Shown here piece after piece: positions 12,529-63,239 of a DNA stretch of 64,000 nt. Source of the DNA: Candidatus Uhrbacteria bacterium (GTDB lineage: Bacteria; Patescibacteriota; Patescibacteriia; UBA9934); contig CAINGB010000025.1 of NCBI GenBank assembly GCA_903848275.1, positions 4,713 to 68,712 on the forward strand, in the 5' to 3' direction. A program made the position numbers and the translations under genes. Position 1 is the first letter of the stretch. The number at the start of each line of letters is the position of its first letter. Below the pieces are notes generated by a model. It searched no databases, had not been told where the DNA came from, and saw nothing but the letters and a program-made list of their open reading frames with translations.

Positions 12529-13074
12529 TTATTTAGTAGATTTTATCTTTTTGATGGCTCGCGCTACAGAAAATACAAACTCCAAATCTTTTGTTGAGTA
12601 TTCTGAGTCTATAGCAGTCAGGGTTCCTATATGTAGGCGATTTCGCAGAATTCGTACTTTGTCAACATCTTTATAAATCTGTTCGTTGATAACTGAGTGA
12701 TCCCGACAAAGAGTGTTAATATCACCTAAATTTAATTTACCTAGCTTTACATGTTCTATGCTCACTACATGAGAGCCTAAAACGATGCGATCTTGATTAT
12801 TAATTTTATAAAGTTCTCTGGAAATCTTAAAGCTTTTTGTTTCTCTAGTTAAATTTTCTTCAGAGACCATGCTCTTCAAAAACCAAACCAGTAGTGCTTC
12901 GATAATTGAAGCGGTATAAACAATAGCAGTTTTCCTAAAGCTACTTCTGAGCGAAGAGGTGTATGTTGGTAAATCTGATAGATATACTAATTCCATCAAA
13001 TGCTCAAATGCAGTGTAGATGTTTCCCCTTAGAATGTCGTCTTCAACAAAAGAAAAATTGGACATTCTAGACAT
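12529..13074 (-). CDS. Hypothetical 181-aa protein in a low-GC insert. It may be an HEPN/Abi-like nuclease (Rx6H-type motif VRILRNRLHIG); this is speculative.
   Basis: An AT-rich ORF inside a GC-rich chromosome. The only motif is R-x6-H near the C-terminus. No confident homology from sequence alone. Confidence 0.4.
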   Translation of the reverse strand: MSRMSNFSFVEDDILRGNIYTAFEHLMELVYLSDLPTYTSSLRSSFRKTAIVYTASIIEALLVWFLKSMVSEENLTRETKSFKISRELYKINNQDRIVLGSHVVSIEHVKLGKLNLGDINTLCRDHSVINEQIYKDVDKVRILRNRLHIGTLTAIDSEYSTKDLEFVFSVARAIKKIKSTK

Positions 13075-13089
13075 AAATAATATTACAGC

Positions 13090-20313: not shown

Positions 20314-20321
20314 TTCGCTCG

Positions 20322-20448
20322 CAACTGCCGTGTCTCCTGTTCCTAGCGGCGCCTCGACAACCGTACCGGCTGGCTCACCTCGTATGACTCGGGGGCCGGC
20401 ACAGGGCCGAGGCTGGCGTCGTCACAGGAGACAACGGCAGTCGCTCGC
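20322..20448. repeat. GC-rich structured intergenic element with a ~20-bp outer stem. It carries a ~40-nt motif shared with 22229-22270.
   Basis: Arms gcaactgccgtgtctcctgt / acaggagacaacggcagtcgc. Shared core ctcacctcgtatgactcggg(g/c)gc(c/t)ggc(a/g)cagggccga. Confidence 0.5.
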
Positions 20449-20523
20449 TCTTAAAGGCCTCCGTCTTGCTAAATAGTTTAAACTACCAACTACTAACTAC
20501 CTACTACCAACTTTCATACTCTA

Positions 20524-21086: not shown

Positions 21087-22171
21087 TCTCCCCCTACCGC
21101 TTAGCCCTGACGCATTTTAACGACCTCACCATCGGCCCAGTCCGCCATGCGAGCTTGCTTGAAGTTTTGGGCAGTGACGAAAAGATTTGGCGAGCAACCA
21201 CCGACGAACTGCAGAGTGGCGGCTTGAGTCGCGGGATGGCGGCGAAGTTTATCGCCTGGCGCACCACGCAAGACCCGCAGGCCCTGCTCGATGATACCTT
21301 GAAGCGTGGGATTAGCTTGGTGACGCTCGATGACCCAGAATACCCAGAACTGCTCCGCGCCATTCATGACGCACCGTATGTGCTCTATTATCGCGGTACG
21401 TTGCCGCCGGCAGATGCATTGCTTGTCGGCGTCGTGGGGTCGCGACAGGCTTCGCAGTATGGTTTAAAAGTAGCTGGTGAATTGTCTGAAGCTCTAGCTA
21501 GGCATCATTTGGTAATAGTAAGTGGCCTGGCCTGGGGTATTGATGAAGAGGCGCACAAAGCGACGGTTAAAGTAAATGGTAAGACGATTGCCGTACTTGG
21601 CTGCGGTTTAGATGCCAATGATTCTTATCGAAAAATACAACTAGCTGAAGAGATCCTCGCTAAAGGCGGAGCGGTAATTAGCGAGTACCCACCAGAGATG
21701 CCTTCGCTTACTCACCATTTCCCAATTCGTAACCGAATAATTTCTGGCATGAGTAAAGGTACCCTGGTGGTCGAGGCAGCTGAGAAGTCTGGCTCACTAA
21801 TAACGGCACGAGCGGCCTTAATGGAAAATCGTGAAGTATTTGCCGTGCCTGGATCTATTCACTCCCCCACTTCTGTTGGTACTAATCGTTTGTGTCGTGA
21901 TGGCGCTCATGTGGTGACCTGTGCCAATGACATCCTTGAAGTACTCGGCGTAACACCAAGAGTGACTTCAACGGAAGTTCCGGCCGCTATGATACCTCCT
22001 GCTGCACCAGAGGCTAGGGCGATTCTAGCGCTACTAAACCACGAACCGAAACACATCGACGATTTGGCTTTGACTGTTAATCTACCGAGCCATACCGTCG
22101 GCGCAACGTTGACGATTATGGAGATTGAGGGTTACGCTCGGCATGTTGGCGGTGGAAATTATACGAGGTAA
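21083..22171 (+). CDS. dprA: DNA processing protein DprA (Smf)
   Basis: Rossmann-like DprA core LLVGVVGSRQAS...VSGLAWGIDEEAHK...VVEAAEKSGSLITA. Start overlaps the pth stop (ATGA). Confidence 0.85.
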   Translation: MISPYRLALTHFNDLTIGPVRHASLLEVLGSDEKIWRATTDELQSGGLSRGMAAKFIAWRTTQDPQALLDDTLKRGISLVTLDDPEYPELLRAIHDAPYVLYYRGTLPPADALLVGVVGSRQASQYGLKVAGELSEALARHHLVIVSGLAWGIDEEAHKATVKVNGKTIAVLGCGLDANDSYRKIQLAEEILAKGGAVISEYPPEMPSLTHHFPIRNRIISGMSKGTLVVEAAEKSGSLITARAALMENREVFAVPGSIHSPTSVGTNRLCRDGAHVVTCANDILEVLGVTPRVTSTEVPAAMIPPAAPEARAILALLNHEPKHIDDLALTVNLPSHTVGATLTIMEIEGYARHVGGGNYTR

Positions 22172-22179
22172 ACGTCAGT

Positions 22180-22420
22180 GAGTTCGCCTAACGCTTCGCT
22201 TCGCCGAAGTCGTCAACCGCACCAGCCGTCTCACCTCGTATGACTCGGGCGCTGGCGCAGGGCCGACTTCAGCTCAGCTCATCGTCAGTCGCAACTCACT
22301 TATCGAGTCAGATGATACAGGTAGCAATGAGGCGAATGAATGCCGGCCCTGCGGAATCCCGCCGAGTCAGACGAGGTATGGTCTGGGATTCTGCGGTTGA
22401 CGGTATGAGTGAGACGAAGT
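22180..22420. repeat. GC-rich structured intergenic element. It carries a direct copy (22229-22270) and an inverted near-copy (~22350-22372) of the motif shared with 20367-20410.
   Basis: gtctcacctcgtatgactcgggcgctggcgcagggccga versus ggctcacctcgtatgactcgggggccggcacagggccga. A reverse-complement-like ccgagtcagacgaggtatgg lies downstream. Confidence 0.45.
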
Positions 22421-22448
22421 GCTATCTGTATCATCTGAATCTGTGAAT

Positions 22449-34979: not shown

Positions 34980-34995
34980 GACAGCAGTATAGCAT

Positions 34996-35042
34996 CTGTG
35001 GATAAGTGCTGTATACGTTGAGCGTATACGCTCAACGTATAC
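34996..35042. repeat. Perfect DnaA box (TTATCCACA, minus orientation) followed by a 32-nt perfect palindrome (gtatacgttgagcgtatacgctcaacgtatac) in the scpA promoter region
   Basis: + strand tctgtggataagtgct | gtatacgttgagcgtatacgctcaacgtatac. The palindrome is self-complementary over all 32 nt and contains 3 GTATAC. Confidence 0.7.
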
Positions 35043-35043
35043 A

Positions 35044-36357
35044 CTACGGTCTTAAGCGTTGAACATCCCGAGGGAAAATCGTCGCCTCCTTAACGTTCGC
35101 GAGGCCCAAGATGTTTTGGGTGAGGCGTTGCAGGCCAATAGCGAAGCCGCCTTCGGGGGGAATACCGAATTTGTGCATGGTCAAGTAGTCCTCAAAATCG
35201 GCCGGGTTCAAGCCTTTCTCCACGATGCGGGCGAGCTGTTCGTCGTAGCGGTTAATGCGCATACCGCCGGAAGTGATTTCACTCCCCCAGCCGATGACGT
35301 CGAAAGTGAGGGTGTTGTTCGGGTCGGTTGGATCCACCTTGGCATAGAACGGGCGTTTGGCTGGCGTCCAGTCAGTGACGAAGACAAAGCCGCAGTTGTG
35401 GTGCTTGGGGGCCCATTCTTTGGAGAGCCACTTTTCGGCCGCTGGTGAGAGGTCTGGCTCCCCTGTTTCGTCGACACCGGCTTCGTCGCGGTAAGCGGCC
35501 AGGGCGTCGGCCAGCTTGATACGAGGGAAACGCTCGCCGAGTGGTGGGAGAACGGTTTCGAGAAGTTTTAATTCGACGGTGCAATCACGCTCGACAGAGG
35601 CAACCATCTGGCGAATGGCGGCTTCTTCGATGTCCATGAGCTCGTCGATGCTATCGATGAAACCAGCTTCAAACTCGAGTTGGTTGAACTCGGTCAAGTG
35701 ACGTGAGGTAGCGAATTTTTCGGCGCGGAAGGAGTAGCTCAAACCGTAAACGCCTTCGTAGACGCCCATGGTGATTTGCTTGTAGAGCTGGGCGGACTGG
35801 GTGAGCGTGGCTTCGCGGCCGTAATAGTCGACCTTGAAGAATTCGGCGCCACCTTCACTAGCGGCACCAGCCAGCACGGGGAAGAAAATTTCGGTGTAGC
35901 CCTGAGCTTCCATGAAAGCGCGGTAACCGTGAACCAAAGCGGCCTGCACACGGAAGATGGCGCGCTGCTTAGGGTGACGGAGAGTGACCACGCGGTTGTC
36001 GAGGAGGGTGTCCAAGTTGACGTCGAGCACAGGCTTGCCGATTTCGACTGGCACGACGTCGACAACTGGTGAGAGAATTTCCAAAGTCTCAACTTGCATT
36101 TCGACTTCTTTAATCAACGGATCCTTCGACTTCTTTTCCACGATGAGGCCGGTGACGGCTACGACGGTTTCCACCTGGAGGCCGTGGAGTTGGGTAAGTT
36201 GCTCGGCGTTAAGGACGGTTTGCGCGAGGCCGGAACGGTCGCGGATGATGGCGAAGCCGAACTTGCTCATGTCGCGGAGGGTGTTGAGCCAGCCTTTGAT
36301 GGTGACGACTTCACCTAGATGGCTTGGGAGATCCTTTACTAGAGTTCTGGTATTCAT
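35044..36357 (-). CDS. aspS: Aspartate--tRNA ligase, archaeal/eukaryal type (possibly non-discriminating)
   Basis: Motif 2 FRAEKFATSRHLTEF. Motif 3 GGFAIGLQRL. SGGMRINRYD is AspRS-like. Start taken at MNTRTLVKDL. Confidence 0.75.
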   Translation of the reverse strand: MNTRTLVKDLPSHLGEVVTIKGWLNTLRDMSKFGFAIIRDRSGLAQTVLNAEQLTQLHGLQVETVVAVTGLIVEKKSKDPLIKEVEMQVETLEILSPVVDVVPVEIGKPVLDVNLDTLLDNRVVTLRHPKQRAIFRVQAALVHGYRAFMEAQGYTEIFFPVLAGAASEGGAEFFKVDYYGREATLTQSAQLYKQITMGVYEGVYGLSYSFRAEKFATSRHLTEFNQLEFEAGFIDSIDELMDIEEAAIRQMVASVERDCTVELKLLETVLPPLGERFPRIKLADALAAYRDEAGVDETGEPDLSPAAEKWLSKEWAPKHHNCGFVFVTDWTPAKRPFYAKVDPTDPNNTLTFDVIGWGSEITSGGMRINRYDEQLARIVEKGLNPADFEDYLTMHKFGIPPEGGFAIGLQRLTQNILGLANVKEATIFPRDVQRLRP

Positions 36358-36383
36358 AGGTCGTATTGGTCCAATAGGACCTA

Positions 36384-37688
36384 TTAAGGAGTTGAGCGAT
36401 TTAGCATGCGGGGGAAGGCGATGGTTTCGCGGATGTGGTGGTTGCCGGTGATCCAACGGACGGTGCGCTCGAGACCGATGCCGAAGCCGCTGTGCTGTAC
36501 GGCGCCGTACTTGCGGGTGTTCAAGTACCAGTCATATTCGGCCAAGGGGTAGCCACGATCCACAATTTCCTTTTTGAGCGCGTCGTAGCTTTCTTCACGC
36601 TGACTACCGCCGATAATTTCGCGGCCTTCTTCTGGCGCGATGAGGTCCGCATTCCTGGCGCGGAGGACGCCAGCTTCATCGACGTAACGCTTCATGTAGA
36701 AGGCTTTGACAGCGGCTGGATAATCCTCGATGAAAATTGGCAGTTGATATTTGTTACCGAGGTAGATTTCTTCCTCCGTGCCCATGTCGTCCAAGGGATC
36801 CACGTCGGCGATGCCGTCGGCGATCAAGATGGCTTTGGCTTCCGCGTGCTTGAGGTGGACGAATGGTTCGTCGACTAGTTTTTGTAAGAGCGTGGTGTCG
36901 CGCTCGAGGATTTTGAGCTCGGGGGCGCAGAATTTGAGGACGTCGCCGACGATGCGCTTGACCATCCGTTCCTGCACAGCCATGTTGTCCACTTGGTCGT
37001 GGAAGGCCATTTCCGCGTCCATCATCCAGAGTTCCGAGAGGTGGTGGCGCGTCTTGCTCTTTTCCGCGCGGAAGACGGGGCCGAAGTCGTAAACTTTGCC
37101 GAAGCTCATGATGCCCGCTTCGCTGTAAAGCTGGCCCGATTGCGAGAGATACATGGGATTGCCGTAGTAGTCGACGCTGAAGAGCTGGGTGGTGTCTTCG
37201 CAGCTAGTTGGCTGCAAGATTGGGGTGTCAAAGCGGATGAAACCGGCTTCGTGGAAGAATTGCTCGATGCTGAAGAAGACTTGGTCGCGAATGCGGAGTG
37301 TGGCCCAGGGCGTGGCGCTGCGGAGGTACAAGTCGCGGTTGTCGAAGAGGAAGTCCGGGCCGTGTTCTTTGTTGGCGATTGGGTAATCTTCTGGAGCGAG
37401 CGCGATGATGGCGAAGGCGGTGCCTTGGATTTCGAAGCCGCTTGGCGCACGAGGCTCAGCTTTAACAAGACCGGTGACGGTGACGGAAGACTCGAGGGTC
37501 AGCGACTTGAGGGCGTCCCATTGCTCGGCTGGCAAATCCCCCGCCGAGTAGACGACTTGGACACGGCCGCTGCCGTCGCGGAATTGGAGGAAGAAGATTT
37601 TGCCGCTGCTCCTGAAGTTGTAGGCCCAGCCTTGAAGAGTAATGGTTTCACCGACGAGGGTTGAGAGTTGGGAGATTGAGGGAGTCAT
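36384..37688 (-). CDS. asnS: Asparagine--tRNA ligase
   Basis: FRAEKSKTRHHLSEL, GGSQREE, DWYLNTRKYGAVQHSGFGIGLER (AsnRS-type motif 3). Start taken at MTPSISQLS. Confidence 0.75.
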   Translation of the reverse strand: MTPSISQLSTLVGETITLQGWAYNFRSSGKIFFLQFRDGSGRVQVVYSAGDLPAEQWDALKSLTLESSVTVTGLVKAEPRAPSGFEIQGTAFAIIALAPEDYPIANKEHGPDFLFDNRDLYLRSATPWATLRIRDQVFFSIEQFFHEAGFIRFDTPILQPTSCEDTTQLFSVDYYGNPMYLSQSGQLYSEAGIMSFGKVYDFGPVFRAEKSKTRHHLSELWMMDAEMAFHDQVDNMAVQERMVKRIVGDVLKFCAPELKILERDTTLLQKLVDEPFVHLKHAEAKAILIADGIADVDPLDDMGTEEEIYLGNKYQLPIFIEDYPAAVKAFYMKRYVDEAGVLRARNADLIAPEEGREIIGGSQREESYDALKKEIVDRGYPLAEYDWYLNTRKYGAVQHSGFGIGLERTVRWITGNHHIRETIAFPRMLNRSTP

Positions 37689-37706
37689 ATAGAGATATTG
37701 TTTTGA

Positions 37707-37847
37707 GTTGGTCACGTTTTGTGACCAACTGGCTACCTGGGGACAATCTGTCCCCAGGTAGCCATCGTAAGAATAGTTTTTTTCGTTCTCAAGTGGTGAC
37801 AACCTGTCACCACTTGACCTCAGTCTGTCACAGTTTGTGACAGACTG
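37707..37847. repeat. Four tandem perfect hairpins between the T-box terminator and the asnS start codon. Stems are 9-13 bp, all built around GTCAC/GTGAC or TGTCCCC cores.
   Basis: + strand: gttggtcac gtttt gtgaccaac. ggctacctggggaca atc tgtccccaggtagcc. caagtggtgaca acc tgtcaccacttg. cagtctgtcaca gtt tgtgacagactg. Confidence 0.7.
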
Positions 37848-37995
37848 AAAAATAAAATTCACCCGTACAGAACGACGAGTTAGGCTCATCATTTTGTAAG
37901 GGCGAATCTTCATTAGATCGCGGTGCCACCTCACTTTAGGCTTTTAAGCAATTGTGCGCGCTGGTCGTTAAGCAGCGGGAGGATTGTCAGGCCTG
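37847..37995 (-). promoter_or_regulatory. Candidate T-box riboswitch leader of asnS. It has a promoter (TTGCCA-17-TATAGT), a short specifier hairpin with AAC (Asn) in its loop, a T-box sequence GGUGGCACCGCG that forms a canonical antiterminator (A1 6 bp, 7-nt bulge UGGCACC, A2 6 bp), and an overlapping 13-bp terminator plus U-tract.
   Basis: Minus strand reads cgcug CUUAACGAC cagcg ... aaGUGAGG UGGCACC GCGAUC uaaugaa GAUUCGC CCUUAC a ... terminator attcgcccttaca...tgtacgggtgaat tttattttt. UGGC is complementary to GCCA (G73 discriminator of tRNA-Asn). Confidence 0.55.
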
Positions 37996-38115
37996 GTAAG
38001 ACTATAGCTGAACGGGGATTTGGTGGCAAGCCTCTAGAATAGAAGAACGACACCGGGGGCATGCCGTTCCCCTGGGGGTCGGGCACCTCACGGTGTCGTT
38101 AAAGTAGAGTTGCAA

Positions 38116-38403
38116 TTAGGCGGGCCTGGTACGCCACTCTCCATCGAGGAAAAAGACGGCACGATGCACGAGCCAACCATCCGAGCGACGGAACACCGAG
38201 CCGAAGATGTGCTCATCAATCTTCCATTCCTCGGGGAAATCCTGAGTCGCCAGACGGTGATCCAAGACGTGTGAGGGACAGAGCCAACTGGGGGTTTGGA
38301 TATCAACCAGGCCGCGGGGGAGGTGTTTGGGCTGGTCGGCCTCGTTGTAGGTGCAACCAGCGGGGATGATGGGGATGCCGGAACAATCGACCATTTGAGG
38401 CAT
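38116..38403 (-). CDS. Hypothetical 95-aa Cys-containing protein with its own consensus promoter and SD
   Basis: Promoter TTGACA-17-TATACT at 38441-38469 (minus). GGAG 7 nt upstream of the ATG. No recognisable family. Confidence 0.5.
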   Translation of the reverse strand: MPQMVDCSGIPIIPAGCTYNEADQPKHLPRGLVDIQTPSWLCPSHVLDHRLATQDFPEEWKIDEHIFGSVFRRSDGWLVHRAVFFLDGEWRTRPA

Positions 38404-38440
38404 TGGGAAACTCCAGGTTGGTGATAAGTTGACCTAAATT

Positions 38441-38469
38441 AGTATAGCAAAAAAATGGCCTTTTGTCAA
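38441..38469 (-). promoter_or_regulatory. Consensus sigma70 promoter (TTGACA-17-TATACT) for the 95-aa ORF
   Basis: Minus strand cttgaca aaaggccatttttttgc tatact. Confidence 0.6.
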
Positions 38470-38506
38470 GCCATGGTGTCAATTATTTGGCTAAAATTGG
38501 CTTAGT

Positions 38507-39295
38507 TTATGGGGTTGATGTGAGGGGTAAAATGCCGGTCCAGAAGGGTTGCGTGGGGTGGCCGGGGACGTGGTAAAGGACGGTGTCGTGGACGCAAGCG
38601 GCCAGAGAGGCGACGTCGGCGCCTTTGAGAGGATAGCGGAAAAGGCCGTCGTAGGAGCTGTCGCGAGCGAGGCGGAGGAGTTGGACGACTTCCTGGCGAA
38701 GGGGCGTGGCCAGGAACCATTCGCCGGGGTTTTTGGCAATGCAGTTGGAGCAAACCAGTCCCCCACGGCCGCCATGCCAGCGGAAAGATAGTGGCACGAT
38801 CTCACCCTCGCAACCAACGCAATGGTCGAGCGCGACGTTGTAGCCGAGTTGGCGCATCAAACGTAAGAGAAAGCCGCTCAGCAAAAAAGTGCTGCGGGTG
38901 GGGTGCAGCGTCTGCTGAGCTTCGAGAAAATGGAGCCAAGTGGTTAGCTCGCCGTAGAGTACGGCGTCCTCTTGCTCTTCGTGAATGATTTTGTCGAGGA
39001 GGCCGAGGGAGGTGAGGGCGAGGAGGCGATGGTCGATGGATTCAGCGATGTTTTTGAAGGCGTGTTTACGTTCGACGCCGATGACGGTGACGGAATGCGC
39101 GCCGCGGATAATTTCGAGGTCGAGAATGGCGCAGGGCCCAAGATGTGGAGAGAGTTTGGCGAGAGGTTTAGCGGCGCCACGACCGAAGAACTCGAGCTTG
39201 CCGTGGCCGGGCGTCAACGCTGAATAACGGCGATCGGCTTCGCGCCAAGGAGAAACTGATAATATTATCGCTTCAGTTTTTATACTCGCCCACAT
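38507..39295 (-). CDS. recO: DNA repair protein RecO
   Basis: OB-fold N-domain plus CxxC...CxxC zinc finger (LDHCVGCEGEI...LVCSNCIAK). Confidence 0.85.
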   Translation of the reverse strand: MWASIKTEAIILSVSPWREADRRYSALTPGHGKLEFFGRGAAKPLAKLSPHLGPCAILDLEIIRGAHSVTVIGVERKHAFKNIAESIDHRLLALTSLGLLDKIIHEEQEDAVLYGELTTWLHFLEAQQTLHPTRSTFLLSGFLLRLMRQLGYNVALDHCVGCEGEIVPLSFRWHGGRGGLVCSNCIAKNPGEWFLATPLRQEVVQLLRLARDSSYDGLFRYPLKGADVASLAACVHDTVLYHVPGHPTQPFWTGILPLTSTP

Positions 39296-39305
39296 ACAAC
39301 GAAAA

Positions 39306-39707
39306 CTAAGCGAGGCGGCGGAGGTCGTCGAGATGGGCTTGAAGAACGAGTTGCGCGGCGATGGCGTCTTCCTGGGCTTTGACGCCGAATTCCTGTTGCA
39401 TGCGGCGAGCTTCCGAAGATGAGAATTTTTCGTCCGCTGTGATAATGGGGAGAGGTGTCGACGAAGCTAAAAGATCGATAAACTTTTTAGTGAGATCGAC
39501 CTGAGTCGAGGAATGCTCGGGATTGCTTTGATAAGGCACGCCGACTACGAGAGCGTCGATGCTTTCGGCCTTGGCGAGCTTGAGAATGACGGGAATAGCG
39601 GCATCGCCACCGACGATGACTTCTAGGGGAAACGCCAAGCCGGAGCTGTCGTCGCCGATAGCTAAGCCGATTTTTTTGAGGCCGAAGTCGATGCCGAGGA
39701 AGCGCAC
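39306..39707 (-). CDS. ruvX: YqgF/RuvX-like putative Holliday junction resolvase / pre-16S nuclease (GTG start assumed)
   Basis: VRFLGIDFGLKKIGLAIGDD...IDALVVGVPY RNase H-like fold signature. The longer tracked ORF overlaps the upstream gene. Confidence 0.65.
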   Translation of the reverse strand: MRFLGIDFGLKKIGLAIGDDSSGLAFPLEVIVGGDAAIPVILKLAKAESIDALVVGVPYQSNPEHSSTQVDLTKKFIDLLASSTPLPIITADEKFSSSEARRMQQEFGVKAQEDAIAAQLVLQAHLDDLRRLA

Positions 39708-39708
39708 A

Positions 39709-40155
39709 TTATTTGACGTCAGACTGGAAGTCAACGCGGAGAACTTGACCGTCCACACTGACTGGAAGGTCGTCGGTAACGCTGAAGACCTGGTCGCCGT
39801 TGTCGACATGGAGGAGCGCAATGTAATCCTTGCTCGGGTCGAGCGGGGTGGTTAAGCGAACGCCAGTACCCTCATGCAAACCGTGATCCAAGAAGCCGGA
39901 GGTAGCAATAATTGGACCAGGAGCCTTGCCGATAGCCTCGTGAATAGTAATGAAACCGTCCTTAACCAGGTTGACAGTAAACATTTGCATATTGGCCCAG
40001 CTGGCACCCGGGGTGATGGCGAGGGTGGAGCCTGGAACGTCGACCGGTACATAATCTGGCTTGGCTGGCGGTGCAGCAAAGAAGAGAACGCCGAGGCCGG
40101 TGATGGCGGCGAGAATGACGACGAGGACGACGATGTCAGTTTTTTTGAAGATCAT
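39709..40155 (-). CDS. Membrane-anchored hypothetical protein (148 aa)
   Basis: N-terminal TM helix, then a soluble domain. No recognisable family. Confidence 0.5.
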   Translation of the reverse strand: MIFKKTDIVVLVVILAAITGLGVLFFAAPPAKPDYVPVDVPGSTLAITPGASWANMQMFTVNLVKDGFITIHEAIGKAPGPIIATSGFLDHGLHEGTGVRLTTPLDPSKDYIALLHVDNGDQVFSVTDDLPVSVDGQVLRVDFQSDVK

Positions 40156-40349
40156 ATTTTGGTTAATTGAAGATCCATGAAGGAGGTGTCGGAGGCGTCT
40201 ATACTCTCATAATCGACGAAAAAGTCGAGGCTACCGACGCGCACTTCGTAGCCGCCGTCGTAATGGTTGGGGGTGATGTAAACAGTCTCTCCGCTAACTT
40301 TAGCGACGTGCTGGCGGATGAAGGCTTCGTCGGAGGTTTGATCGCGCAT
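40152..40349 (-). CDS. Small hypothetical protein (65 aa). 4-nt overlap with the downstream gene. TTATCCCCAC motif lies 42 nt upstream.
   Basis: ATGA overlap with the 39709..40155 gene, so translational coupling is plausible. Confidence 0.35.
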   Translation of the reverse strand: MRDQTSDEAFIRQHVAKVSGETVYITPNHYDGGYEVRVGSLDFFVDYESIDASDTSFMDLQLTKI

Positions 40350-40391
40350 ACGAGAGTTAGTGTACCTGAACGGTGACTTGGAACAAGGAGG

Positions 40392-40445
40392 GTGGGGATA
40401 AGTGGTCTACATTCAATGTATACATTGAATGTAGACCACTTATCC
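40392..40445. repeat. 50-nt perfect palindrome (25-bp arms, centre GTATAC) flanked by TTATCC(CC)AC DnaA-box-like motifs. Its right arm overlaps the stop codon of the ABC permease gene.
   Basis: ggataagtggtctacattcaatgta|tacattgaatgtagaccacttatcc. The left end reads gtggggataag (reverse complement cTTATCCCCAC). The right end reads cTTATCCACgg. Confidence 0.8.
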
Positions 40446-41276
40446 ACGGAGGCCGATGAAGTTACCGCTTTCGTAGCGGCGGACGGAGCCGTAGAAGGCG
40501 GCGATGCTGATGAGGAGCCAGAGGAGAGCGATGAGCCAGACGAGGCCGAGGGTGAGCCAGCTGTGGCCCATGACGGCTTCCACGGGGAGACCACCGACGG
40601 TGAGGGACGGAATGAGAACGACGAAGATGAAACGGGCGACTTTTGGAAATAAGGCGGAGGGATACATGGTTGGGTTCATGAAAACCTTAAAGACGGCCAT
40701 GACAGTGTGATTGGAATCGGGAAGATAAAAGGCGGCGGTACCGGCGACCACGCTGACGCTCAAAAAGATCAACATGGTGGCTGGCAACATGGCGGCGAAC
40801 CAAACGAGCGAGAGAGCTGAGCCGGTTATGACAGCATAAGCAATAATCAAAATCACGCCGAGTAAAGCGTCGCCCAAACCAGCGAGGTCGAAGCGACTGG
40901 TCATGGTGCGCACATAAAGATTGCGGGGCGAGAGTAGAAAGCCATCGAATGTTCCCTGCTCGACATAACGCGGTAACCACAAACTGCCACCAGCAAAGCC
41001 GAACGTGAAGCCGTAACACATGAGGTTCATGCCGAGCAGCGCAAAAATTTGAGTGCCGCTCCAGCCGTTGACGCTGCCCATGACCTGGAAGAATAAGATC
41101 CACAAGGCTAAGAAGGCGCAGTCGTTAATCATCATGCCGACGATCTGCAACATGAAAGCAGTACGGAATTCCATGGCGGCACGAAAATTAGTCAGCCAAA
41201 TAATCCGAGCGACCGTGAACTCGGCGATGAGGCCAGAAACGAATGATCGTTTATTTTTAATGCGCTTAGCCCCCAT
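40440..41276 (-). CDS. ABC-2 type transporter permease (second permease of a three-gene system)
   Basis: Polytopic membrane protein with a 6-TM ABC-2 profile. Confidence 0.7.
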   Translation of the reverse strand: MGAKRIKNKRSFVSGLIAEFTVARIIWLTNFRAAMEFRTAFMLQIVGMMINDCAFLALWILFFQVMGSVNGWSGTQIFALLGMNLMCYGFTFGFAGGSLWLPRYVEQGTFDGFLLSPRNLYVRTMTSRFDLAGLGDALLGVILIIAYAVITGSALSLVWFAAMLPATMLIFLSVSVVAGTAAFYLPDSNHTVMAVFKVFMNPTMYPSALFPKVARFIFVVLIPSLTVGGLPVEAVMGHSWLTLGLVWLIALLWLLISIAAFYGSVRRYESGNFIGLRG

Positions 41277-57840: not shown

Positions 57841-58383
57841 CTAAAGTGGTTCGAGGTAGAACTGCTCTTCCCCGCCGTTATTTTTTGCTTGGGAAAGCGG
57901 TTGACGGGGTGTTTCGGGCGGTCGTGGTGAGGCCGGAACTGGGGTATTTACAGACTGGCGTGGCTCGGTTCGAGGCTCAGCCTGAGGAATGGGACGGGGC
58001 TCGAGGCGTGGTTCGGGCTCGTAACGAGGGCTCGGGGCGGGTTCGATGATTTCGAGGACGGGTTCGGTAGGTGCGGCCAGAAAGACTGGGTCGATCTCGA
58101 TTTCCCCTATCTCCTCCTCCCCTTCCGCCTCAAACTCGGGCTCGACCCGCTCGGCTGTCTCGGCCTGGTGGCCGTGTGGGTGGCTATGTCCGGCGTGGTC
58201 GTGCTCAGCCTCCAGCTGTTCTATCTCCTCGTCGTCCGGCCCTAGGAAGCCATTGACCAAGGCCTCGTACTGCTCAAACGGCAGAATAACCAGTGGTTCC
58301 CCACCGTGCTCGTTGGTCACAATCAGTCTGTCCCCTGTCCGCCTAGCAAACCGCAAGAGCTTCTGGAATTGATCATTAGCCAT
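57841..58383 (-). CDS. Phd/YefM-like antitoxin-domain protein fused to a long acidic Pro/Glu-rich tail with a His-rich patch. It is an orphan, with no adjacent toxin.
   Basis: N-terminus RLIVTNEHGGEPLVILPFEQYEAL resembles the YefM/Phd core. The tail is EPEPRLEPRPIPQAEPRTEPR..., with HDHAGHSHPHGH. Confidence 0.45.
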   Translation of the reverse strand: MANDQFQKLLRFARRTGDRLIVTNEHGGEPLVILPFEQYEALVNGFLGPDDEEIEQLEAEHDHAGHSHPHGHQAETAERVEPEFEAEGEEEIGEIEIDPVFLAAPTEPVLEIIEPAPSPRYEPEPRLEPRPIPQAEPRTEPRQSVNTPVPASPRPPETPRQPLSQAKNNGGEEQFYLEPL

Positions 58384-58453
58384 ATAGGGCCATCTTAGTA
58401 CTTGGGCCCGGAATGTCAAAACCGAGGCACTGAGCCCCGGTTCGGATGTTGAC

Positions 58454-59263
58454 CTAGCCTCTTGTTTCATTTGCTTTTTCTGCTGCGACTTTCTTTTCAG
58501 CTTCTTCTTGGAGCCACTCAGTTATTTGTTCTATCTCTCTTAAAGCGTTTAGTGCTTCTTCGATTTGCTCATTAAGGAAATCCCTTTCGCGTTTCAGTGC
58601 TCCCAGCCTCTTCTCAGAGGTAGATACGGTATCGGCGACTTGAGCCTTAAATGAATTAGGATCGGTATTTTCCAGCCAAAATTTATGCACAGCAGCTAGA
58701 TTTTTTTCTGCATCTATTATTTTATTGCCTATTTCTTTTGTTAAGAAAGTCGCATTCGTTTGCAAATCCTCCCAATACTTTTGCTTGTTTGCCATTTCTT
58801 TTAATGTAAGGGTGCTGTTTATTTTTTCAATCTCACCATGCATGTCGCGGTAAAAGTCATTAGGGTTGTCATGATACACATCCCTCTCTCCAGCTTTTTC
58901 TCGTTTTTCCGCTTCTTCCCTGCGTCCCTCAATGTAGGCAGCGGTCTCTATAGCATTCGTCATTTGATCTCGTAAACCCGACATTATTGGCCCATCAATA
59001 TTGCGCATGCCTTCGAGCGCTGTAACAGCTCTTTCTACTGCTTCAATTTGCCCGAGAGCACCCTTAAAACCCTCAATTGCTTTCTTTCCTTTTAATGAAT
59101 CAATAACGTTCTCGAGTTTTTTGTAATTGTCGCTTGTACTATACCTATCATGAGGCAATGTTTTAGCGAAGCGCTCGGCTGGGGAAGAAACCTTATCCGC
59201 CTCTTTGGGGACATTAATAAACTCCTTCAATCCGTCCGGTCGCGTTCTTTCTTCAACACCCAT
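58454..59263 (-). CDS. Hypothetical coiled-coil protein (269 aa), low GC. TTATCCCCAC motif lies ~65 nt upstream.
   Basis: AT-rich, charged and helical. No family recognised. Confidence 0.45.
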   Translation of the reverse strand: MGVEERTRPDGLKEFINVPKEADKVSSPAERFAKTLPHDRYSTSDNYKKLENVIDSLKGKKAIEGFKGALGQIEAVERAVTALEGMRNIDGPIMSGLRDQMTNAIETAAYIEGRREEAEKREKAGERDVYHDNPNDFYRDMHGEIEKINSTLTLKEMANKQKYWEDLQTNATFLTKEIGNKIIDAEKNLAAVHKFWLENTDPNSFKAQVADTVSTSEKRLGALKRERDFLNEQIEEALNALREIEQITEWLQEEAEKKVAAEKANETRG

Positions 59264-59344
59264 AAAATAACAAAAATAATCTTACCTGGCGTAATTTTCC
59301 CATAGAGTGCCTCCCACCTGCAAATGAGTGTGGGGATAACACGA

Positions 59345-59821
59345 TTATGTAGAGGTAGTCCTAACCCCCTCGGCGATGTGGAGAATGTGGGATTTGGGGA
59401 CGAGATAAGTTGGGTAATGCTGGCCGTCGACGAGGGCGACTTTTTGTTTGGCGAGGTGTTCTGTTTCGGCGTCGACGAGGAATTTAAGGCCGAAGAGGTT
59501 GATGCTGGCTTTGACTTGGACGTTGTGCGACCAAGAACCGATGAACTCCCAGTTATGAATAGCGCAGCGTTGAGCGTTGGTTAAAAGCCATAGAGTGCCG
59601 GTGACTTGGCTAGCTGGTTGTTTGACAATGCCATAGGAGACAAAGCTGTCGCCCCAAGCGCGACGGAGGGGACGTTGGGCTTTTTTGGGAATATCGTTCA
59701 GCTGTTGCACGCATAAGTGCCAGCCGTCGAGAGAAGCTGGTAGGTGTAGAGCGGAACGACCAGTAATAGCCTTGATCATAGCCGCGTCGCGATTGGCGCC
59801 AAAGCCGAAGTAAAGTTTCAT
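59345..59821 (-). CDS. Gamma-glutamyl cyclotransferase (AIG2/GGCT)-like protein. TTATCCCCAC motif lies ~36 nt upstream.
   Basis: N-terminus MKLYFGFGANRD resembles the YGSN motif of AIG2-like proteins. Moderate. Confidence 0.4.
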   Translation of the reverse strand: MKLYFGFGANRDAAMIKAITGRSALHLPASLDGWHLCVQQLNDIPKKAQRPLRRAWGDSFVSYGIVKQPASQVTGTLWLLTNAQRCAIHNWEFIGSWSHNVQVKASINLFGLKFLVDAETEHLAKQKVALVDGQHYPTYLVPKSHILHIAEGVRTTST

Positions 59822-59930
59822 ACAGAAGTATTGTCCCCTGCCAGAAAAAGTAAAGCAACTGGCCGTGGGGATAAAATCGAATCTGTGCTAGACTGAAAGT
59901 AGCAGTAATTCATTATTAATTAACAGCCCT

Positions 59931-60704
59931 ATGGAAAAGCGCAATAATTGGGCAGTAGTTGGAGGAGTTGTGGTAATAGCAGCGGTGATTGTCGCGATCG
60001 TGCTATTGACGAGAACACCATTAGAACCAGATGGCAAAGGTGACCAGCCGACGAACGTGGTTGACGACACTACAACTGGCGGAGTTGTGAAGGATGATCA
60101 GAAGCCCGTGGTTACAGGAACGGTCTACGAAAACTCGAAGTTCAGTATTGCTATACCAAAAGGTTGGACGGCTAGTGAGGCGATAATCAATATCGACAGT
60201 AAATCAGACGGTGCGACCACGGAATTGAACCCAGCGGCGGTAAATATTACCAATGGCAAATGGATTCTCTACGTCAACGTCGACGCCAACCAGGCTAGCG
60301 GTGTGCCCGGTGGACGATTCGCGGAAATTGGCATGGGTGCGCCGAGTGTGGATGCTGTAGTATTAGTCGAACCAGGCGAATGCGGACGCTCGACTGGCCC
60401 TGAAGGCACGCCAGCGTTTGCGAATTATAGCCGGATTGATGATTTCATTTCAGTAGCTGATGCCACGACTGGCTGTGCCACGCCAACTGACGGGCAGGAT
60501 CACTGGTTCTTCTCGTATTTGACGAGTCCGGGTAATGGCTTCTTTAACGACTACGTACTCGGACAAAACCCAGGCTTAGTGGTAACGATGGCTTATAACG
60601 AAAAGGTGGTGAATAAACTCCCAATTTGGAACAGCGACTCGCTAACTAAAGCACTGAATGACATGACGAGTATCGCGAGTACGTTGAAGATTAAGAATCG
60701 CTAG
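59931..60704 (+). CDS. Hypothetical membrane-anchored exported protein (257 aa)
   Basis: N-terminal TM/signal anchor AVVGGVVVIAAVIVAIVLL, then a Gly/Thr-rich domain. Confidence 0.5.
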   Translation: MEKRNNWAVVGGVVVIAAVIVAIVLLTRTPLEPDGKGDQPTNVVDDTTTGGVVKDDQKPVVTGTVYENSKFSIAIPKGWTASEAIINIDSKSDGATTELNPAAVNITNGKWILYVNVDANQASGVPGGRFAEIGMGAPSVDAVVLVEPGECGRSTGPEGTPAFANYSRIDDFISVADATTGCATPTDGQDHWFFSYLTSPGNGFFNDYVLGQNPGLVVTMAYNEKVVNKLPIWNSDSLTKALNDMTSIASTLKIKNR

Positions 60705-60715
60705 GAGCTTTCGTA

Positions 60716-60800
60716 AAAAATAACTCCCGGAGGGCTTGCCACGTCAGTCGCGACTGACGTGGCTTGCACGCCTCCGGGAGATGTTTTTTTATTTAAGCGG
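60716..60800. terminator. Bidirectional intrinsic terminator: nested perfect palindrome (gccacgtcagtcg|cgactgacgtggc inside ctcccggagg/cctccgggag), flanked by A6 and T7
   Basis: aaaaaataactcccggagggcttgccacgtcagtcgcgactgacgtggcttgcacgcctccgggagatgtttttttattt, between convergent genes. Confidence 0.7.
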
Positions 60801-61239
60801 CGATGGATCGTTCGGCGGCGGCGAGGGCTTTAGCCTGTTGGTCTGGTGTGCGGTGTTGGGCAGCGAAGGTGTCGGAAGCAATGACGTCTGAGGCGGCGTC
60901 GTTCTGCTTGCTGGCCATGCGGATAGCCGAGAGGATGAGGTCGAGTTCTGGGAGTTGGAGTTGATTGGCGAACTTTTTAACGCGGGCGATGGCTTGCGAC
61001 ATGTCGTGCAGTGAAGAGCTGTCCAAGTGTCGGCCGTCGGCAAAGGCGGCGAAGATTGGTTGTAAACTCTGAAGCTCGGCGCTGGCTGACTCGTTGGTGG
61101 TTTGTTCGATGATATTAGGAATGATGTTGGTGGCAATATTGCTGGCGTGTTCGGCGATGGTGCGCAAACGTTCGTGACGGGCAGGGTCGGGCTGTTCTGG
61201 CTGTTCGGATGAATGCATCATATGGATAGAGTTTAGCAC
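60793..61239 (-). CDS. Hypothetical protein (148 aa)
   Basis: ORF only. Last gene of a four-gene minus-strand cluster. Confidence 0.4.
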   Translation of the reverse strand: MLNSIHMMHSSEQPEQPDPARHERLRTIAEHASNIATNIIPNIIEQTTNESASAELQSLQPIFAAFADGRHLDSSSLHDMSQAIARVKKFANQLQLPELDLILSAIRMASKQNDAASDVIASDTFAAQHRTPDQQAKALAAAERSIAA

Positions 61240-61562
61240 TAAACTACGATGTCGTTAATTGCTTCGAGTCGACGAGGATAACTGGCCGAAGGAGAGGCAT
61301 CGACAAGACTTAACGAAAATATATCTACGTCTTGGCCACCCTCGGTAAGTGTGGCGACTGTATTTGTAATAGTGAGGCTGGTGTGAGCCAGGTCATCACA
61401 TGTCCAATGGATACAGTTTTTGTTGGCGTCGACGTCTTCTTCCACAACTGTTTGCCGCAGGACCTTGTTCAAGCCGTTAATTTTAATAATGCAGCCGGCG
61501 CGAAGTGAACGAAATTTCTCCCAATCGGCGGCAGTAATGGGTAGGATAGAAATAGTAGACAT
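61239..61562 (-). CDS. Hypothetical protein (107 aa)
   Basis: ORF only. Stop/start junction with the downstream gene. Confidence 0.4.
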   Translation of the reverse strand: MSTISILPITAADWEKFRSLRAGCIIKINGLNKVLRQTVVEEDVDANKNCIHWTCDDLAHTSLTITNTVATLTEGGQDVDIFSLSLVDASPSASYPRRLEAINDIVV

Positions 61563-61564
61563 AC

Positions 61565-61855
61565 CTATTTAGTAAAGGCGAACGAAGTGATATCGGCAAA
61601 TTTACCACTGCCTTGGCGTGAGCTATCACTGAACTCTTTTTTCTTCAGCTCTCCGTTACGGAGAAGTAAAAGGTAATTTCTATACCCTACGTCCATGTAG
61701 CGATATGGAAGTAGAAAATTCTCGGCTGGTTCGTCGACGATCAGTAGGCTGGTAATAATTTCTGGTGCGCTATCAACCAAAATTATGTCGCCAATGCGGA
61801 GGTTGAAGAATTTGATTTGTGAGAGTTCGCTTAAGGGGAAAGGTTTACTAATCAT
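61565..61855 (-). CDS. Hypothetical protein (96 aa)
   Basis: ORF only. Confidence 0.4.
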   Translation of the reverse strand: MISKPFPLSELSQIKFFNLRIGDIILVDSAPEIITSLLIVDEPAENFLLPYRYMDVGYRNYLLLLRNGELKKKEFSDSSRQGSGKFADITSFAFTK

Positions 61856-61952
61856 AAAAAAATTACTATTAATACCATGCTATCACGTCGGTGCAAACGA
61901 AAACACCACCCACGACGTGCGAGCGGTGTTGTTCTGTTAGCTGACCAATCAA

Positions 61953-63149: not shown

Positions 63150-63239
63150 ACTAATTAAAATAATTATAACTCACACAAGTTTCTCATAAAGTCACCCCCC
63201 CCCCGCAAATGAACGTGGGGATAAGATTATCTGCAAAAA

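What the first reader, a model, noticed from the sequence alone, without database searches (positions are those of the whole stretch)
35011..40445. Two long perfect palindromes centred on GTATAC and flanked by DnaA-box-like sequences
A 32-nt perfect palindrome (35011-35042, three GTATAC) lies between the aspS stop and the scpA promoter, adjacent to a perfect DnaA box. A 50-nt perfect palindrome (40396-40445) is likewise centred on GTATAC and bounded by inverted TTATCC(CC)AC copies. Its right arm is fused to the stop codon of the ABC permease gene. Neither palindrome has a U-tract, so neither is a simple terminator. They could be protein-binding sites, cruciform-forming elements, or recombination or restriction-related sites.
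Basis: seen in the sequence. Interest (0 to 1): 0.55.

Follow-up and report, generated by a model that had tools for sequence, protein, structure and literature searches.

The report
REP-like hairpin repeats in a Uhrbacteria genome
The two long perfect palindromes are real and are two copies of a small, lineage-specific family of hairpin-forming repeats that sits between genes in an uncultured Candidatus Uhrbacteria bacterium; this resembles the REP elements of other bacteria and is not a replication origin, a restriction site or a classical terminator.

Summary
Chance does not explain them: Markov simulations never exceeded 24 nt.

They are not independent. Both follow one plan, read on the minus (coding) strand: GTMKAC-N7-GTATAC-N7-GTMKAC, with a 13-bp period and self-complementary N7 spacers, followed by a conserved tail ACTTATCCMCAG. 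The "DnaA box" is part of that tail.

Further copies lie in two sister MAGs: L005, and two sites in L007. L006 holds a half copy. Other close relatives (L008/L205, and L006 at one site) have 18-23 nt spacers at the same junctions, so the element is gained and lost.

The stems covary: 6 of 14 pairs show compensatory changes and 95.7% of cells are paired. Orthologous copies keep 26/26 stem bases while their flanks diverge.

Every copy sits just after a stop codon or terminator and just upstream of a probably leaderless promoter. None has a U-tract. I found no oriC features, no GTATAC bias, and no R-M or transposase gene among the genes scanned.

Best reading: a REP-like dispersed hairpin repeat, probably acting as an RNA 3' stem-loop or insulator. 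Copy number, mobility mechanism and function are inferred.

The parts
35010..35043 (-). F1 copy 1 (pal1). A 34-nt perfect palindrome, GTATAC-N7-GTATAC-N7-GTATAC, that starts directly after the aspS stop codon.
   Evidence: F1 profile hit E=2e-12. RNA fold -26.5 kcal/mol, z=-4.3.
34996..35009 (-). Conserved F1 tail GCACTTATCCACAG. It contains the perfect DnaA-box-like TTATCCACA at 34997-35005.
34986..34994 (-). Extended -10 (TGCTATACT) of the scpA promoter. The ATG at 34979 is only 6 nt downstream, so the transcript is probably leaderless (inferred).
   Evidence: The same -10/ATG geometry is seen upstream of scpA across relatives.
35044..35046 (-). Stop codon (TAG) of the non-discriminating aspS gene, abutting pal1.
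40396..40445 (-). F1 copy 2 (pal2). A 50-nt perfect palindrome. The F1 core GTCTAC-N7-GTATAC-N7-GTAGAC is at 40405-40436. The outer 8-9 bp pair the tail with the end of the permease gene.
   Evidence: F1 profile E=5.6e-14. RNA fold -38.9 kcal/mol, z=-11.
40392..40403 (-). Conserved F1 tail ACTTATCCCCAC, with TTATCCCCA at 40393-40401.
40440..40442 (-). Stop codon (TAA) of the ABC-2 permease gene (40440-41276), lying inside the palindrome arm.
40359..40364 (-). The -10-like TACACT of the 65-aa gene that heads the DUF7282-ruvX-recO cluster (ATG at 40349). GGTACACTAACTC is shared with L007, which carries a different repeat upstream.
59331..59339 (-). Hairpin-less TTATCCCCA box at the upstream edge of a promoter region in the ORFan island. 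Possibly related to the F1 tail; the relationship is not shown.
59866..59874 (-). Hairpin-less TTATCCCCA box upstream of ORF 59345-59821.
63216..63224 (-). Hairpin-less TTATCCCCA box just after the fusA terminator and upstream of ORF 61953-63149.

Best explanation
The two palindromes are copies of one lineage-specific dispersed repeat, here called F1.

Read on the coding (minus) strand, F1 is a 32-34-nt hairpin with three parts:
- a conserved foot, GTMTAC/GTAKAC;
- variable but self-complementary 7-nt spacers;
- a conserved apex, GTATAC.

The hairpin is followed by an unpaired conserved tail, ACTTATCCMCAG, whose core equals the DnaA-box consensus.

F1 behaves like the REP (repetitive extragenic palindrome) elements of other bacteria. 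It is gained and lost at gene junctions. It sits within a few bases of the upstream stop codon, or of a terminator. It lies at variable distance from the next gene.

Proposed mechanism (inferred, not shown): the element is transcribed at the 3' end of the upstream message. There it folds into a 15-25-bp stem-loop. That stem-loop could block 3' exonucleases, damp read-through, or both. This would separate the upstream gene from the probably leaderless promoter that starts right behind it.

How copies spread is unknown. Candidates are an HUH/RAYT-type enzyme acting on the DNA hairpin plus tail, or recombination.
For: One family:
- The five intact copies align over foot, apex and tail. They are pal1, pal2, L005 3650-3701, L007 11873-11924 and L007 468-417. 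All have N7 spacing.
- The 15-nt string GTAGACCACTTATCC is identical at three non-orthologous junctions: permease-p65 in the window, aspS-scpA in L005, and terminator-to-promoter in L007.
- An F1 profile finds only these copies in about 2 Mb of held sequence.

Hairpin constraint:
- 95.7% of cells are paired and 6 of 14 pairs have changes on both sides.
- The covariation score is 0.52 against 0.22 in shuffles (0 of 500 reach it). Slid registers give 24-45% pairing.
- The apex tolerates asymmetric changes (GTATAT, ATATAC) while the stems stay perfect.

Purifying constraint or recent transfer:
- Orthologous L005 and L007 copies share 26/26 stem bases.
- I counted the 28 nt behind the tail by eye as 57% identical, and the flanking genes are about 82% identical.
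- The foot pair changed G:C to A:T on both sides.

Gain and loss:
- L008 and L205 have 18-21-nt spacers at both junctions.
- L006 has 23 nt at permease-p65 and only a half copy at aspS-scpA.
- L007 carries an unrelated palindromic repeat at permease-p65.

REP-like placement:
- Copies lie 0-11 nt from the upstream stop, or directly behind a U-tract terminator in L007.
- They lie 17-44 nt from the next ATG where one follows.
- This matches the published distribution of REPs between unidirectional genes, including REP ends that supply stop codons (PMC3733652).

Not a classical terminator: there is no U-tract. Most other perfect hairpins in the related loci are A-tract/stem/T-tract terminators.

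Context: the clade holds several other intergenic palindromic repeat families.
Against: - Only five intact copies and one half copy are known, in four genomes, and only two in this 64-kb window. The high copy number that defines REPs is not shown.
- No RAYT or IS200-type transposase was found, although not all ORFs were scanned and only 64 kb of the genome is available.
- F1 lacks the unpaired GTAG or CGTC tag of described REP super-families.
- Exact perfection of both window copies (34/34 and 50/50) could reflect recent palindrome formation or arm-to-arm correction rather than selection.
- In all five intact copies the tail points toward the downstream gene. The same two operon heads (scpAB and the ruvX-recO cluster) carry palindromic repeats in several genomes. 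Both facts would also fit a regulatory cassette.
- There is no expression data, so RNA-level and DNA-level roles cannot be separated. Only one G:U pair gives any hint of strand.
Confidence: 0.55

Rival explanations
1. Regulatory cassette on duplex DNA. A protein binds at the upstream edge of the promoters of chromosome-maintenance operons (scpAB; p65-DUF7282-ruvX-recO) and controls them. The protein could be DnaA at the TTATCCMCA box, or an oligomer reading the three GTMKAC hexamers spaced 13 bp apart.
For: - TTATCCMCA occurs 6 times against 0.46 expected (0 of 100 shuffles reach 6). Five of the six are intergenic, on the coding strand, upstream of genes.
- The box equals the DnaA-box consensus in four copies.
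- In every intact F1 copy the tail faces the downstream gene.
- Palindromic repeats recur upstream of scpA and of the ruvX-recO cluster in several genomes: F1 in the window, L005 and L007, and F4 in L007, L014 and L057.
- parAB and topA are nearby.
Against: - The distance from the box to the -10 varies from 5 to about 30 nt in F1 copies. In the hairpin-less sites the box lies roughly 45-60 nt upstream of the -10. That is not a fixed operator position.
- The N7 spacers differ between copies yet stay self-complementary, with compensatory changes. A symmetric duplex-binding protein does not explain this.
- The central hexamer mutates asymmetrically (GTATAT, ATATAC).
- The element is absent from the same promoters in close relatives that keep the genes.
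- The box is not enriched across 1.3 Mb of other Patescibacteria loci: 25 found, about 20 expected.
- p65 is acidic and has no DNA-binding family hit.
Confidence: 0.15
2. DNA-level recombination or transposition substrate. The hairpin plus tail is the single-stranded end or target of an HUH (IS200/IS605 or RAYT-like) enzyme or of an attC-like site-specific system. It has no role in the transcript.
For: - Pairs are strictly Watson-Crick in four of five copies.
- A conserved unpaired sequence lies next to the hairpin foot, as in REP/RAYT substrates and IS608 ends (my own knowledge).
- Presence and absence vary at orthologous sites.
- At the permease junction, the empty site in L006 (GGCTAAGT) already resembles the complement of the tail (GGATAAGT). 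This hints at target preference.
Against: - No HUH transposase, integrase or recombinase was found among the scanned genes of the window.
- No paired left and right ends or target duplications were seen.
- The orientation follows transcription on both DNA strands of L007. This fits an RNA role at least as well.
Confidence: 0.12
3. Neutral by-products of template switching or fold-back repair. Each palindrome arose locally by copying one arm, and the family resemblance is incidental.
For: - Both window copies are perfect.
- L006 carries only the right half of pal1, with the same downstream sequence. This fits one-arm to two-arm conversion, or the reverse.
- The clade's spacers hold many unrelated long hairpins that differ between close relatives.
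Against: - Local duplication cannot give the same 7-nt foot, 6-nt apex, N7 spacing and 12-nt tail at three unrelated junctions.
- The stems are conserved 26/26 between species whose flanks are 57-82% identical.
Confidence: 0.06
4. Restriction-modification-related sites (GTATAC, or GTMKAC as for AccI-type enzymes), or a replication origin or dif-type site.
For: - All hexamers in the elements fit GTMKAC.
- A perfect DnaA box is present.
Against: - GTATAC occurs 7 times against 5.5 expected and GTCGAC 65 against 51.5, so there is no avoidance.
- No R-M gene was found among the scanned genes.
- The boxes are single and 5.4 kb apart.
- Cumulative GC skew rises monotonically, with no turn.
- No dnaA or dnaN was found among the scanned genes.
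Confidence: 0.03

Closest known systems
REP / BIME elements (repetitive extragenic palindromes, including the GTAG- and CGTC-tagged super-families; Di Nocera et al. 2013, PMC3733652)
   Same: - A 30-40-nt hairpin-forming intergenic repeat.
- It lies close to the 3' end of the upstream ORF, between unidirectional genes, and sometimes supplies or abuts the stop codon.
- A conserved unpaired end sits next to the stem.
- It is species- or genus-specific and varies in presence between relatives.
- It is plausibly transcribed and acts as RNA.
   Different: - It has no unpaired GTAG or CGTC tag. The conserved end is a 12-nt tail, ACTTATCCMCAG.
- It has a 13-bp triad of GTMKAC hexamers.
- Copy number is unknown and so far low.
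- No RAYT gene was seen.
- The host is an uncultured Candidatus Uhrbacteria (Patescibacteria) genome. My one literature search turned up no description of such repeats in that group.
Intrinsic (Rho-independent) terminators
   Same: A stable stem-loop directly behind a coding region.
   Different: There is no U-tract and the stems are AT-rich and very long. One copy sits directly behind a genuine U-tract terminator. The clade's real terminators have flanking A and T runs.
DnaA boxes (oriC or DnaA-regulated promoters)
   Same: TTATCCACA is the consensus 9-mer. It is over-represented in intergenic DNA here.
   Different: The boxes are single rather than clustered. There is no DUE, no skew switch and no dnaA neighbourhood. 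The TTATCCCCA variant is equally common. The box travels as part of the repeat.
Correia / MITE-type miniature elements that carry promoter or terminator functions
   Same: A small dispersed element inserted between genes, next to promoters, and varying in presence between strains.
   Different: It is much shorter (about 45-60 nt). It is a single hairpin rather than terminal inverted repeats around a core. No target-site duplication was seen.

Membership tests
REP (repetitive extragenic palindrome) | Short (about 20-40 bp) palindromic unit able to form a stem-loop | tested here: met
   The core is 32-34 nt (50 nt in pal2 with the outer extension). Stems are 15-25 bp with z-scores of -4.3 and -11. 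Compensatory changes are present.
REP (repetitive extragenic palindrome) | Repeated at many dispersed loci in one genome (tens to hundreds of copies) | tested here: inconclusive
   There are 2 copies in 64 kb, and 5 intact copies plus 1 half copy in about 130 kb of four sister genomes, at 3 non-orthologous junctions.
REP (repetitive extragenic palindrome) | Extragenic, mostly just downstream of ORFs between unidirectional or convergent genes | tested here: met
   All copies lie between co-directional genes. They are 0-11 nt from the upstream stop or directly behind a terminator. Compare PMC3733652.
REP (repetitive extragenic palindrome) | Unpaired GTAG or CGTC tag at one end (tagged super-families) | tested here: not met
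   The conserved unpaired end is ACTTATCCMCAG. GTAGAC occurs, but inside the stem.
REP (repetitive extragenic palindrome) | Cognate RAYT (Y1 HUH) transposase gene flanked by the repeats | tested here: inconclusive
   None was found among about 50 ORFs of the window scanned with Pfam, NCBIfam or PHROGs. Only 64 kb of the genome was seen and some ORFs were not scanned.
Intrinsic terminator | GC-rich hairpin followed by a U-tract | tested here: not met
   The terminator scan does not list either palindrome. The sequences after the stems are GCACUUAUCC and CCACCCUCC.
oriC / DnaA-box cluster | Several DnaA boxes within a few hundred bp, with an AT-rich unwinding element, a GC-skew switch, and usually dnaA/dnaN nearby | tested here: not met
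   There are six boxes in 64 kb, never clustered. Cumulative skew is monotonic. No dnaA or dnaN was found among the scanned genes.
Restriction-modification target | Site avoidance or enrichment genome-wide, and a cognate R-M gene | tested here: not met
   GTATAC observed/expected is 1.27. Without the two palindromes it is 3 against 5.5. No R-M domain was found in the scanned genes.
Transcription-factor operator | Fixed position relative to the promoter, with sequence (not pairing) conservation of half-sites | tested here: not met
   The position relative to the -10 varies. The spacers covary rather than being conserved.
TIGR stem-loop arrays (Patescibacteria and phage) | Stem-loops whose large loops hold box C/D motifs and two 8-12-nt spacers, next to a Tas gene | tested here: not met
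   The loops here are 0-6 nt and no Tas-like gene is present. The family definition is taken from PMC12045711.

The most novel reading that the evidence does not exclude
F1 is a mobile cassette that carries a functional DnaA box on a hairpin scaffold. It drops that box at the upstream edge of leaderless promoters, so chromosome-maintenance operons (scpAB, ruvX-recO) come under DnaA (cell-cycle) control in a reduced CPR genome.

Alternatively, when extruded as single-stranded DNA, the pal2 form (box paired inside the stem) acts like the DnaA-box hairpins that nucleate ABC-type primosomes.

Either would be a new way of wiring or rewiring DnaA function through a REP-like repeat.
Probability: 0.1. 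Interest if true: 0.65.

Novelty: new variant of a known kind. Interest (0 to 1): 0.35.

Why it matters
If the reading holds, small Patescibacteria (CPR) genomes, which are usually described as streamlined, still carry and turn over REP-like hairpin repeats at gene junctions. At least one such family has a distinctive architecture: a triad of GTMKAC hexamers plus a tail that looks like a DnaA box.

There are three practical consequences:
- Isolated perfect DnaA boxes in these genomes should not be used to call origins.
- Long perfect palindromes break metagenome contigs. Two of four independent contigs end inside pal2, so such elements are under-sampled.
- These junction elements mark the places where operons are cut into separate transcription units in organisms that cannot yet be cultured.

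The general phenomenon is well known in other phyla, so the surprise is moderate.

Tried and rejected
- **Exact-pattern scans for the pal2-type right half.** GTCTAC-N18-24-GTAGACCACTTATCC gave no hit in viral contigs or JGI metagenomes.
- **Looser triad scan.** The hits were mostly 13-bp-period tandem satellites. A few unrelated palindromic GTATAC triads appeared, and none had the tail.
- **Plasmid BLAST of pal2.** No match.
- **Rfam.** No family matched at gathering or lenient thresholds, only spurious microRNA hairpin models.
- **parS near parB.** No match beyond chance.
- **TIGR stem-loop arrays.** Rejected because the loops are too small and no Tas gene is present.
- **p65 as an autoregulator binding pal2.** Rejected. 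The protein is acidic, has no family hit, and the element is absent upstream of p65 in close relatives.
- **Known operators recalled from memory (NrdR, LexA, Fur, CIRCE and QacR boxes).** None fits. These were not formally tested.
- **Homologue search with the island protein 61953-63149.** It was meant to reach relatives of the hairpin-less TTATCCCCA sites, but returned one distant hit only.
- **Der homologue search.** It gave extra loci only from the F1-free L205/L008 lineage and from the window's own strain (L211). No new copies were found.
- **F1 profile (nhmmer) on all about 2 Mb of held loci.** It found nothing beyond the known copies.

Full report
**The observation**

Both palindromes are in the sequence. 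The first is TGTATACGTTGAGCGTATACGCTCAACGTATACA at 35010-35043. The second is a 50-nt perfect palindrome at 40396-40445, exactly as reported.

In 100 first-order Markov simulations of the window, the longest perfect palindrome was 12-24 nt. Palindromes of 20 nt or more occurred 0.1 times per simulation. The window has four, up to 50 nt.

The 50-nt palindrome is not an assembly artefact. Independently assembled contigs from other samples (L001, L003) carry it with the same flanks. Two further contigs, L002 and L004, end inside it. That is what a long perfect palindrome does to a de Bruijn assembler.

**Gene context**

All genes here are on the minus strand. In order of transcription they are:
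- ABC ATPase
- two ABC-2 permeases
- a 65-aa ORF (p65)
- DUF7282
- ruvX
- recO
- a 95-aa ORF
- asnS
- non-discriminating aspS
- scpA
- scpB

pal2 contains the stop codon of the second permease and lies 46 nt upstream of the p65 ATG. pal1 starts at the base after the aspS stop codon and ends 30 nt before the scpA ATG.

Behind pal1 come GCAC, then TTATCCACA (a perfect DnaA-box 9-mer), then an extended -10 TGCTATACT six bases before the ATG. The same -10-to-ATG geometry recurs upstream of scpA in many relatives, so these genes probably have leaderless transcripts. This is an inference.

The organism is an uncultured Candidatus Uhrbacteria (Patescibacteria/CPR) bacterium. The nearest genomes are MAGs with 95-97% AsnS identity and about 80-90% nucleotide identity.

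**One family, not two curiosities**

Read on the minus strand, both palindromes have the same plan: GTMTAC-N7-GTATAC-N7-GTAKAC, followed by 2-5 nt and then ACTTATCCMCA(G/C). The hexamers are 13 bp apart in both.

The orthologous aspS-scpA spacer of two sister MAGs carries the pal2-type element rather than the pal1 type:
- L005: GGTCTACCTCAAAGGTATATCTTTGAGGTAGACCACTTATCCCCAG
- L007: AGTCTACCTCAAAGATATACCTTTGAGGTAGACTAACTTATCCACAG

A third locus in L007, at 468-417 on the opposite strand, has GGTCTACCTCTGGGGTATACGCTCGAGGTAGACCACTTATCCACAG.

L006 holds only the right half of the pal1 type, followed by the same tail and promoter.

A profile built from them finds nothing else in about 2 Mb of held sequence, including 76 more distant Patescibacteria loci. 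Exact-pattern scans of viral contigs and JGI metagenomes, and a plasmid BLAST, also found nothing. I call the family F1.

**The hairpin is what is constrained**

The 7-nt spacers differ between copies but are complementary within each copy:
- ATTCAAT/ATTGAAT
- CTCAAAG/CTTTGAG
- GTTGAGC/GCTCAAC

On the alignment, 95.7% of cells form standard pairs. Six of 14 pairs have changes on both sides. The covariation score is 0.52 against 0.22 in shuffles, and 0 of 500 shuffles reach it. Sliding the register drops pairing to 24-45%.

The apex hexamer, which would form the loop, mutates asymmetrically (GTATAT in L005, ATATAC in L007) while the stems stay perfect.

The orthologous L005 and L007 copies keep 26/26 stem bases. 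I counted the 28 nt behind the tail by eye as 57% identical, and the neighbouring genes are about 82% identical. Their outermost foot pair changed from G:C to A:T on both sides.

A symmetric duplex-binding protein would conserve half-site sequence rather than pairing. The data therefore point to a folded single strand, RNA or DNA, or to continuing arm-to-arm correction.

As RNA, pal1 folds at -26.5 kcal/mol (z=-4.3) and pal2 at -38.9 kcal/mol (z=-11).

**Gain and loss**

The close relative L008/L205 has only 18-21 nt at both junctions and no element. L006 has 23 nt between the permease and p65. L007 has an unrelated double palindrome there, CAACCCTAAGGGTTG x2, here called F4.

F4 itself recurs behind terminators and in front of promoters in L014, L021 and L057.

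The distribution of pal1-type copies (window, L006) and pal2-type copies (L005, L007) at the aspS-scpA junction does not follow overall similarity, where the window is closest to L005. The spacer has therefore been replaced or exchanged.

pal2's extra length has a simple explanation. The end of the permease gene (GGA TAA GT) happens to be the complement of the F1 tail (ACTTATCC). The empty site in L006 reads GGC TAA GT, already 7/8 complementary. This may be chance plus one synonymous change, or a hint of target preference.

**What it is not**

- Neither copy has a U-tract, and the terminator scan does not list them.
- The L007 468-417 copy sits directly behind a genuine hairpin-plus-U-tract terminator.
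- Most other perfect hairpins in the related loci are A-tract/stem/T-tract terminators.
- There is no oriC signature. TTATCCMCA occurs six times, never clustered. Cumulative GC skew rises without a turn. No dnaA or dnaN was found among the scanned genes, although parAB, topA, dprA and relA are present.
- GTATAC is neither avoided nor enriched: 7 observed against 5.5 expected, and 4 of the 7 lie in the palindromes.
- No R-M, recombinase or transposase domain was found in the ORFs scanned.
- Rfam has no matching family.
- TIGR stem-loop arrays, known from Patescibacteria, need large loops with box C/D motifs and a Tas gene. These are absent.

**The DnaA-box-like tail**

TTATCCMCA is over-represented: 6 found against 0.46 expected, and 0 of 100 shuffles reach 6. 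Five of the six are intergenic, on the coding strand, upstream of genes.

Two of the five are F1 tails. The other three (59339, 59874, 63224) have no hairpin. They lie in a 5.5-kb island of ORFans between fusA and tuf. Two of them head a shared 45-nt non-coding element in front of unrelated proteins.

The box's distance to the -10 varies from 5 to about 30 nt in F1 copies. In the hairpin-less sites it lies roughly 45-60 nt upstream of the -10. It is therefore not a core promoter element or a fixed operator.

Across 1.3 Mb of other Patescibacteria loci the box is not enriched: 25 found against about 20 expected. I therefore treat it as part of the repeat. A role as a protein-binding site is not excluded.

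**Comparison with known systems**

The closest known kind is the REP element. REPs are 20-40-bp palindromic repeats. They are mostly extragenic, lie close to the 3' end of the upstream ORF between unidirectional or convergent genes, and sometimes supply the stop codon. They have a conserved unpaired end and are often species-specific and probably transcribed (PMC3733652).

F1 meets the size, structure and placement criteria. It fails the GTAG/CGTC tag criterion. Copy number and a cognate RAYT could not be tested. It works like a REP, but membership in the described super-families is not shown, so I file it as a new variant.

From my own knowledge, not tested here: REPs stabilise upstream mRNA against 3' exonucleases, and REPs within about 15 nt of a stop codon can stall terminating ribosomes. 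Both would apply to pal1 (0 nt from the stop) and pal2 (stop codon inside the stem).

**Verdict**

The DnaA, R-M and recombination leads are not supported.

The most likely explanation is a REP-like dispersed hairpin repeat at gene junctions (confidence 0.55). Rivals are:
- a regulatory cassette on duplex DNA (0.15)
- a DNA-level transposition or recombination substrate (0.12)
- neutral template-switch products (0.06)
- an R-M or origin site (0.03)

Interest is moderate to low (0.35). It is a new variant of a known kind, in a phylum where such repeats have, to my knowledge, not been described.

Noticed in passing
window 37706-38010 (minus strand); L007 8310-8580; L205 6165-6320: The asnS leader looks like a T-box: AAAGTGAGGTGGCACCGCG followed by a U-tract terminator. 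Rfam's T-box model gives only 15.5 bits (E=0.32). The leader is conserved in L007, L008/L205, L020 and L060. Between its terminator and the asnS ATG the window has four perfect hairpins (37706-37848, arms 10-16 nt, loops 3-5 nt). These are absent from L008/L205. In L006 and L007 hairpins of the same kind (L006 9295-9372; L007 8474-8564) precede an extra gene inserted before asnS (in L007 its ATG is at about 8583).
   Followed up: partly
window 11515-11540 and 60738-60763; L007 13322-13347: A second palindromic repeat, GCCRCGTCRGTCGCGACYGACGYGGC (26 nt, perfect), with a compensatory A:T to G:C change between copies. One copy is the core of a bidirectional A-tract/T-tract terminator. Another lies inside the hflX-like ORF.
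   Followed up: partly
window 20314-20465 and 22172-22418; L205 10265-10432: The der-pth and dprA-mur spacers are very strongly structured; the 261-nt stretch 22165-22425 that I folded gives -116 kcal/mol. They share a 37-nt repeat, CTCACCTCGTATGACTCGGG..., at 20374 and 22230. A similar sequence (one mismatch over the first 20 nt) occurs inverted in another spacer of L205. The orthologous der-pth spacer in L208 holds a different long hairpin.
   Followed up: partly
L007 6226-6262; L014 4934-4969 and 13683-13720; L021 about 6470-6500; L057 about 10727-10760: Another dispersed palindromic repeat, TTCAACCCTAAGGGTTG-N3-4-CAACCCTTAGGGTTGAA. In L014, L021 and L057 it lies between a terminator and the next promoter; in L007 it directly follows the permease stop codon. 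Junctions: secY-adk, upstream of scpA, and permease-p65.
   Followed up: partly
window 57841-63224: A 5.5-kb island of eight ORFs with no Pfam or PHROG hit lies between fusA and tuf, which are usually adjacent. The 398-aa protein has a single distant homologue in 5.8 billion proteins. Three island genes are preceded by TTATCCCCAC. Two of them share a 45-nt upstream element although the proteins are unrelated.
   Followed up: partly
window 1-64000: GC skew is positive on the plus strand in 31 of 32 2-kb bins. Yet most genes, including the ribosomal protein operon, secY, tuf and fusA, are on the minus strand. The coding strand is therefore C-rich, which is unusual.
   Followed up: no
L002 (ends at 1642) and L004 (ends at 950): Two independently assembled contigs stop inside the 50-nt palindrome. 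Long perfect palindromes break short-read assemblies, so they will be under-represented inside contigs.
   Followed up: partly
window 120-9527 and 9531-11408: A 3135-aa ORF is followed by a 625-aa protein with Big_5 and T4SS-pilin-like domains. The giant ORF was not analysed.
   Followed up: no
L162 9230; L095 17; L152 241; L128 1940: Unrelated metagenome contigs carry GTATAC-N7-GTATAC-N7-GTATAC with (near-)complementary spacers, for example GTATACCAATTTGGTATACCAAATTGGTATAC. They have no TTATCC tail. It is unclear whether they are operators, satellites or chance matches.
   Followed up: no
L020 about 13030-13075; L206 about 9600-9640 (= L015 12920-12960): Between aspS and scpA (in L015/L206 several hundred nt upstream of scpA, with another small ORF in between), more distant relatives carry other inverted repeats built from DnaA-box-like words. 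Examples are TTTGTCCACACTAAGCACTGACAGTGCTTAGTGTGGAC and GTGGATAGCTTGACAGTTATCCAC.
   Followed up: no
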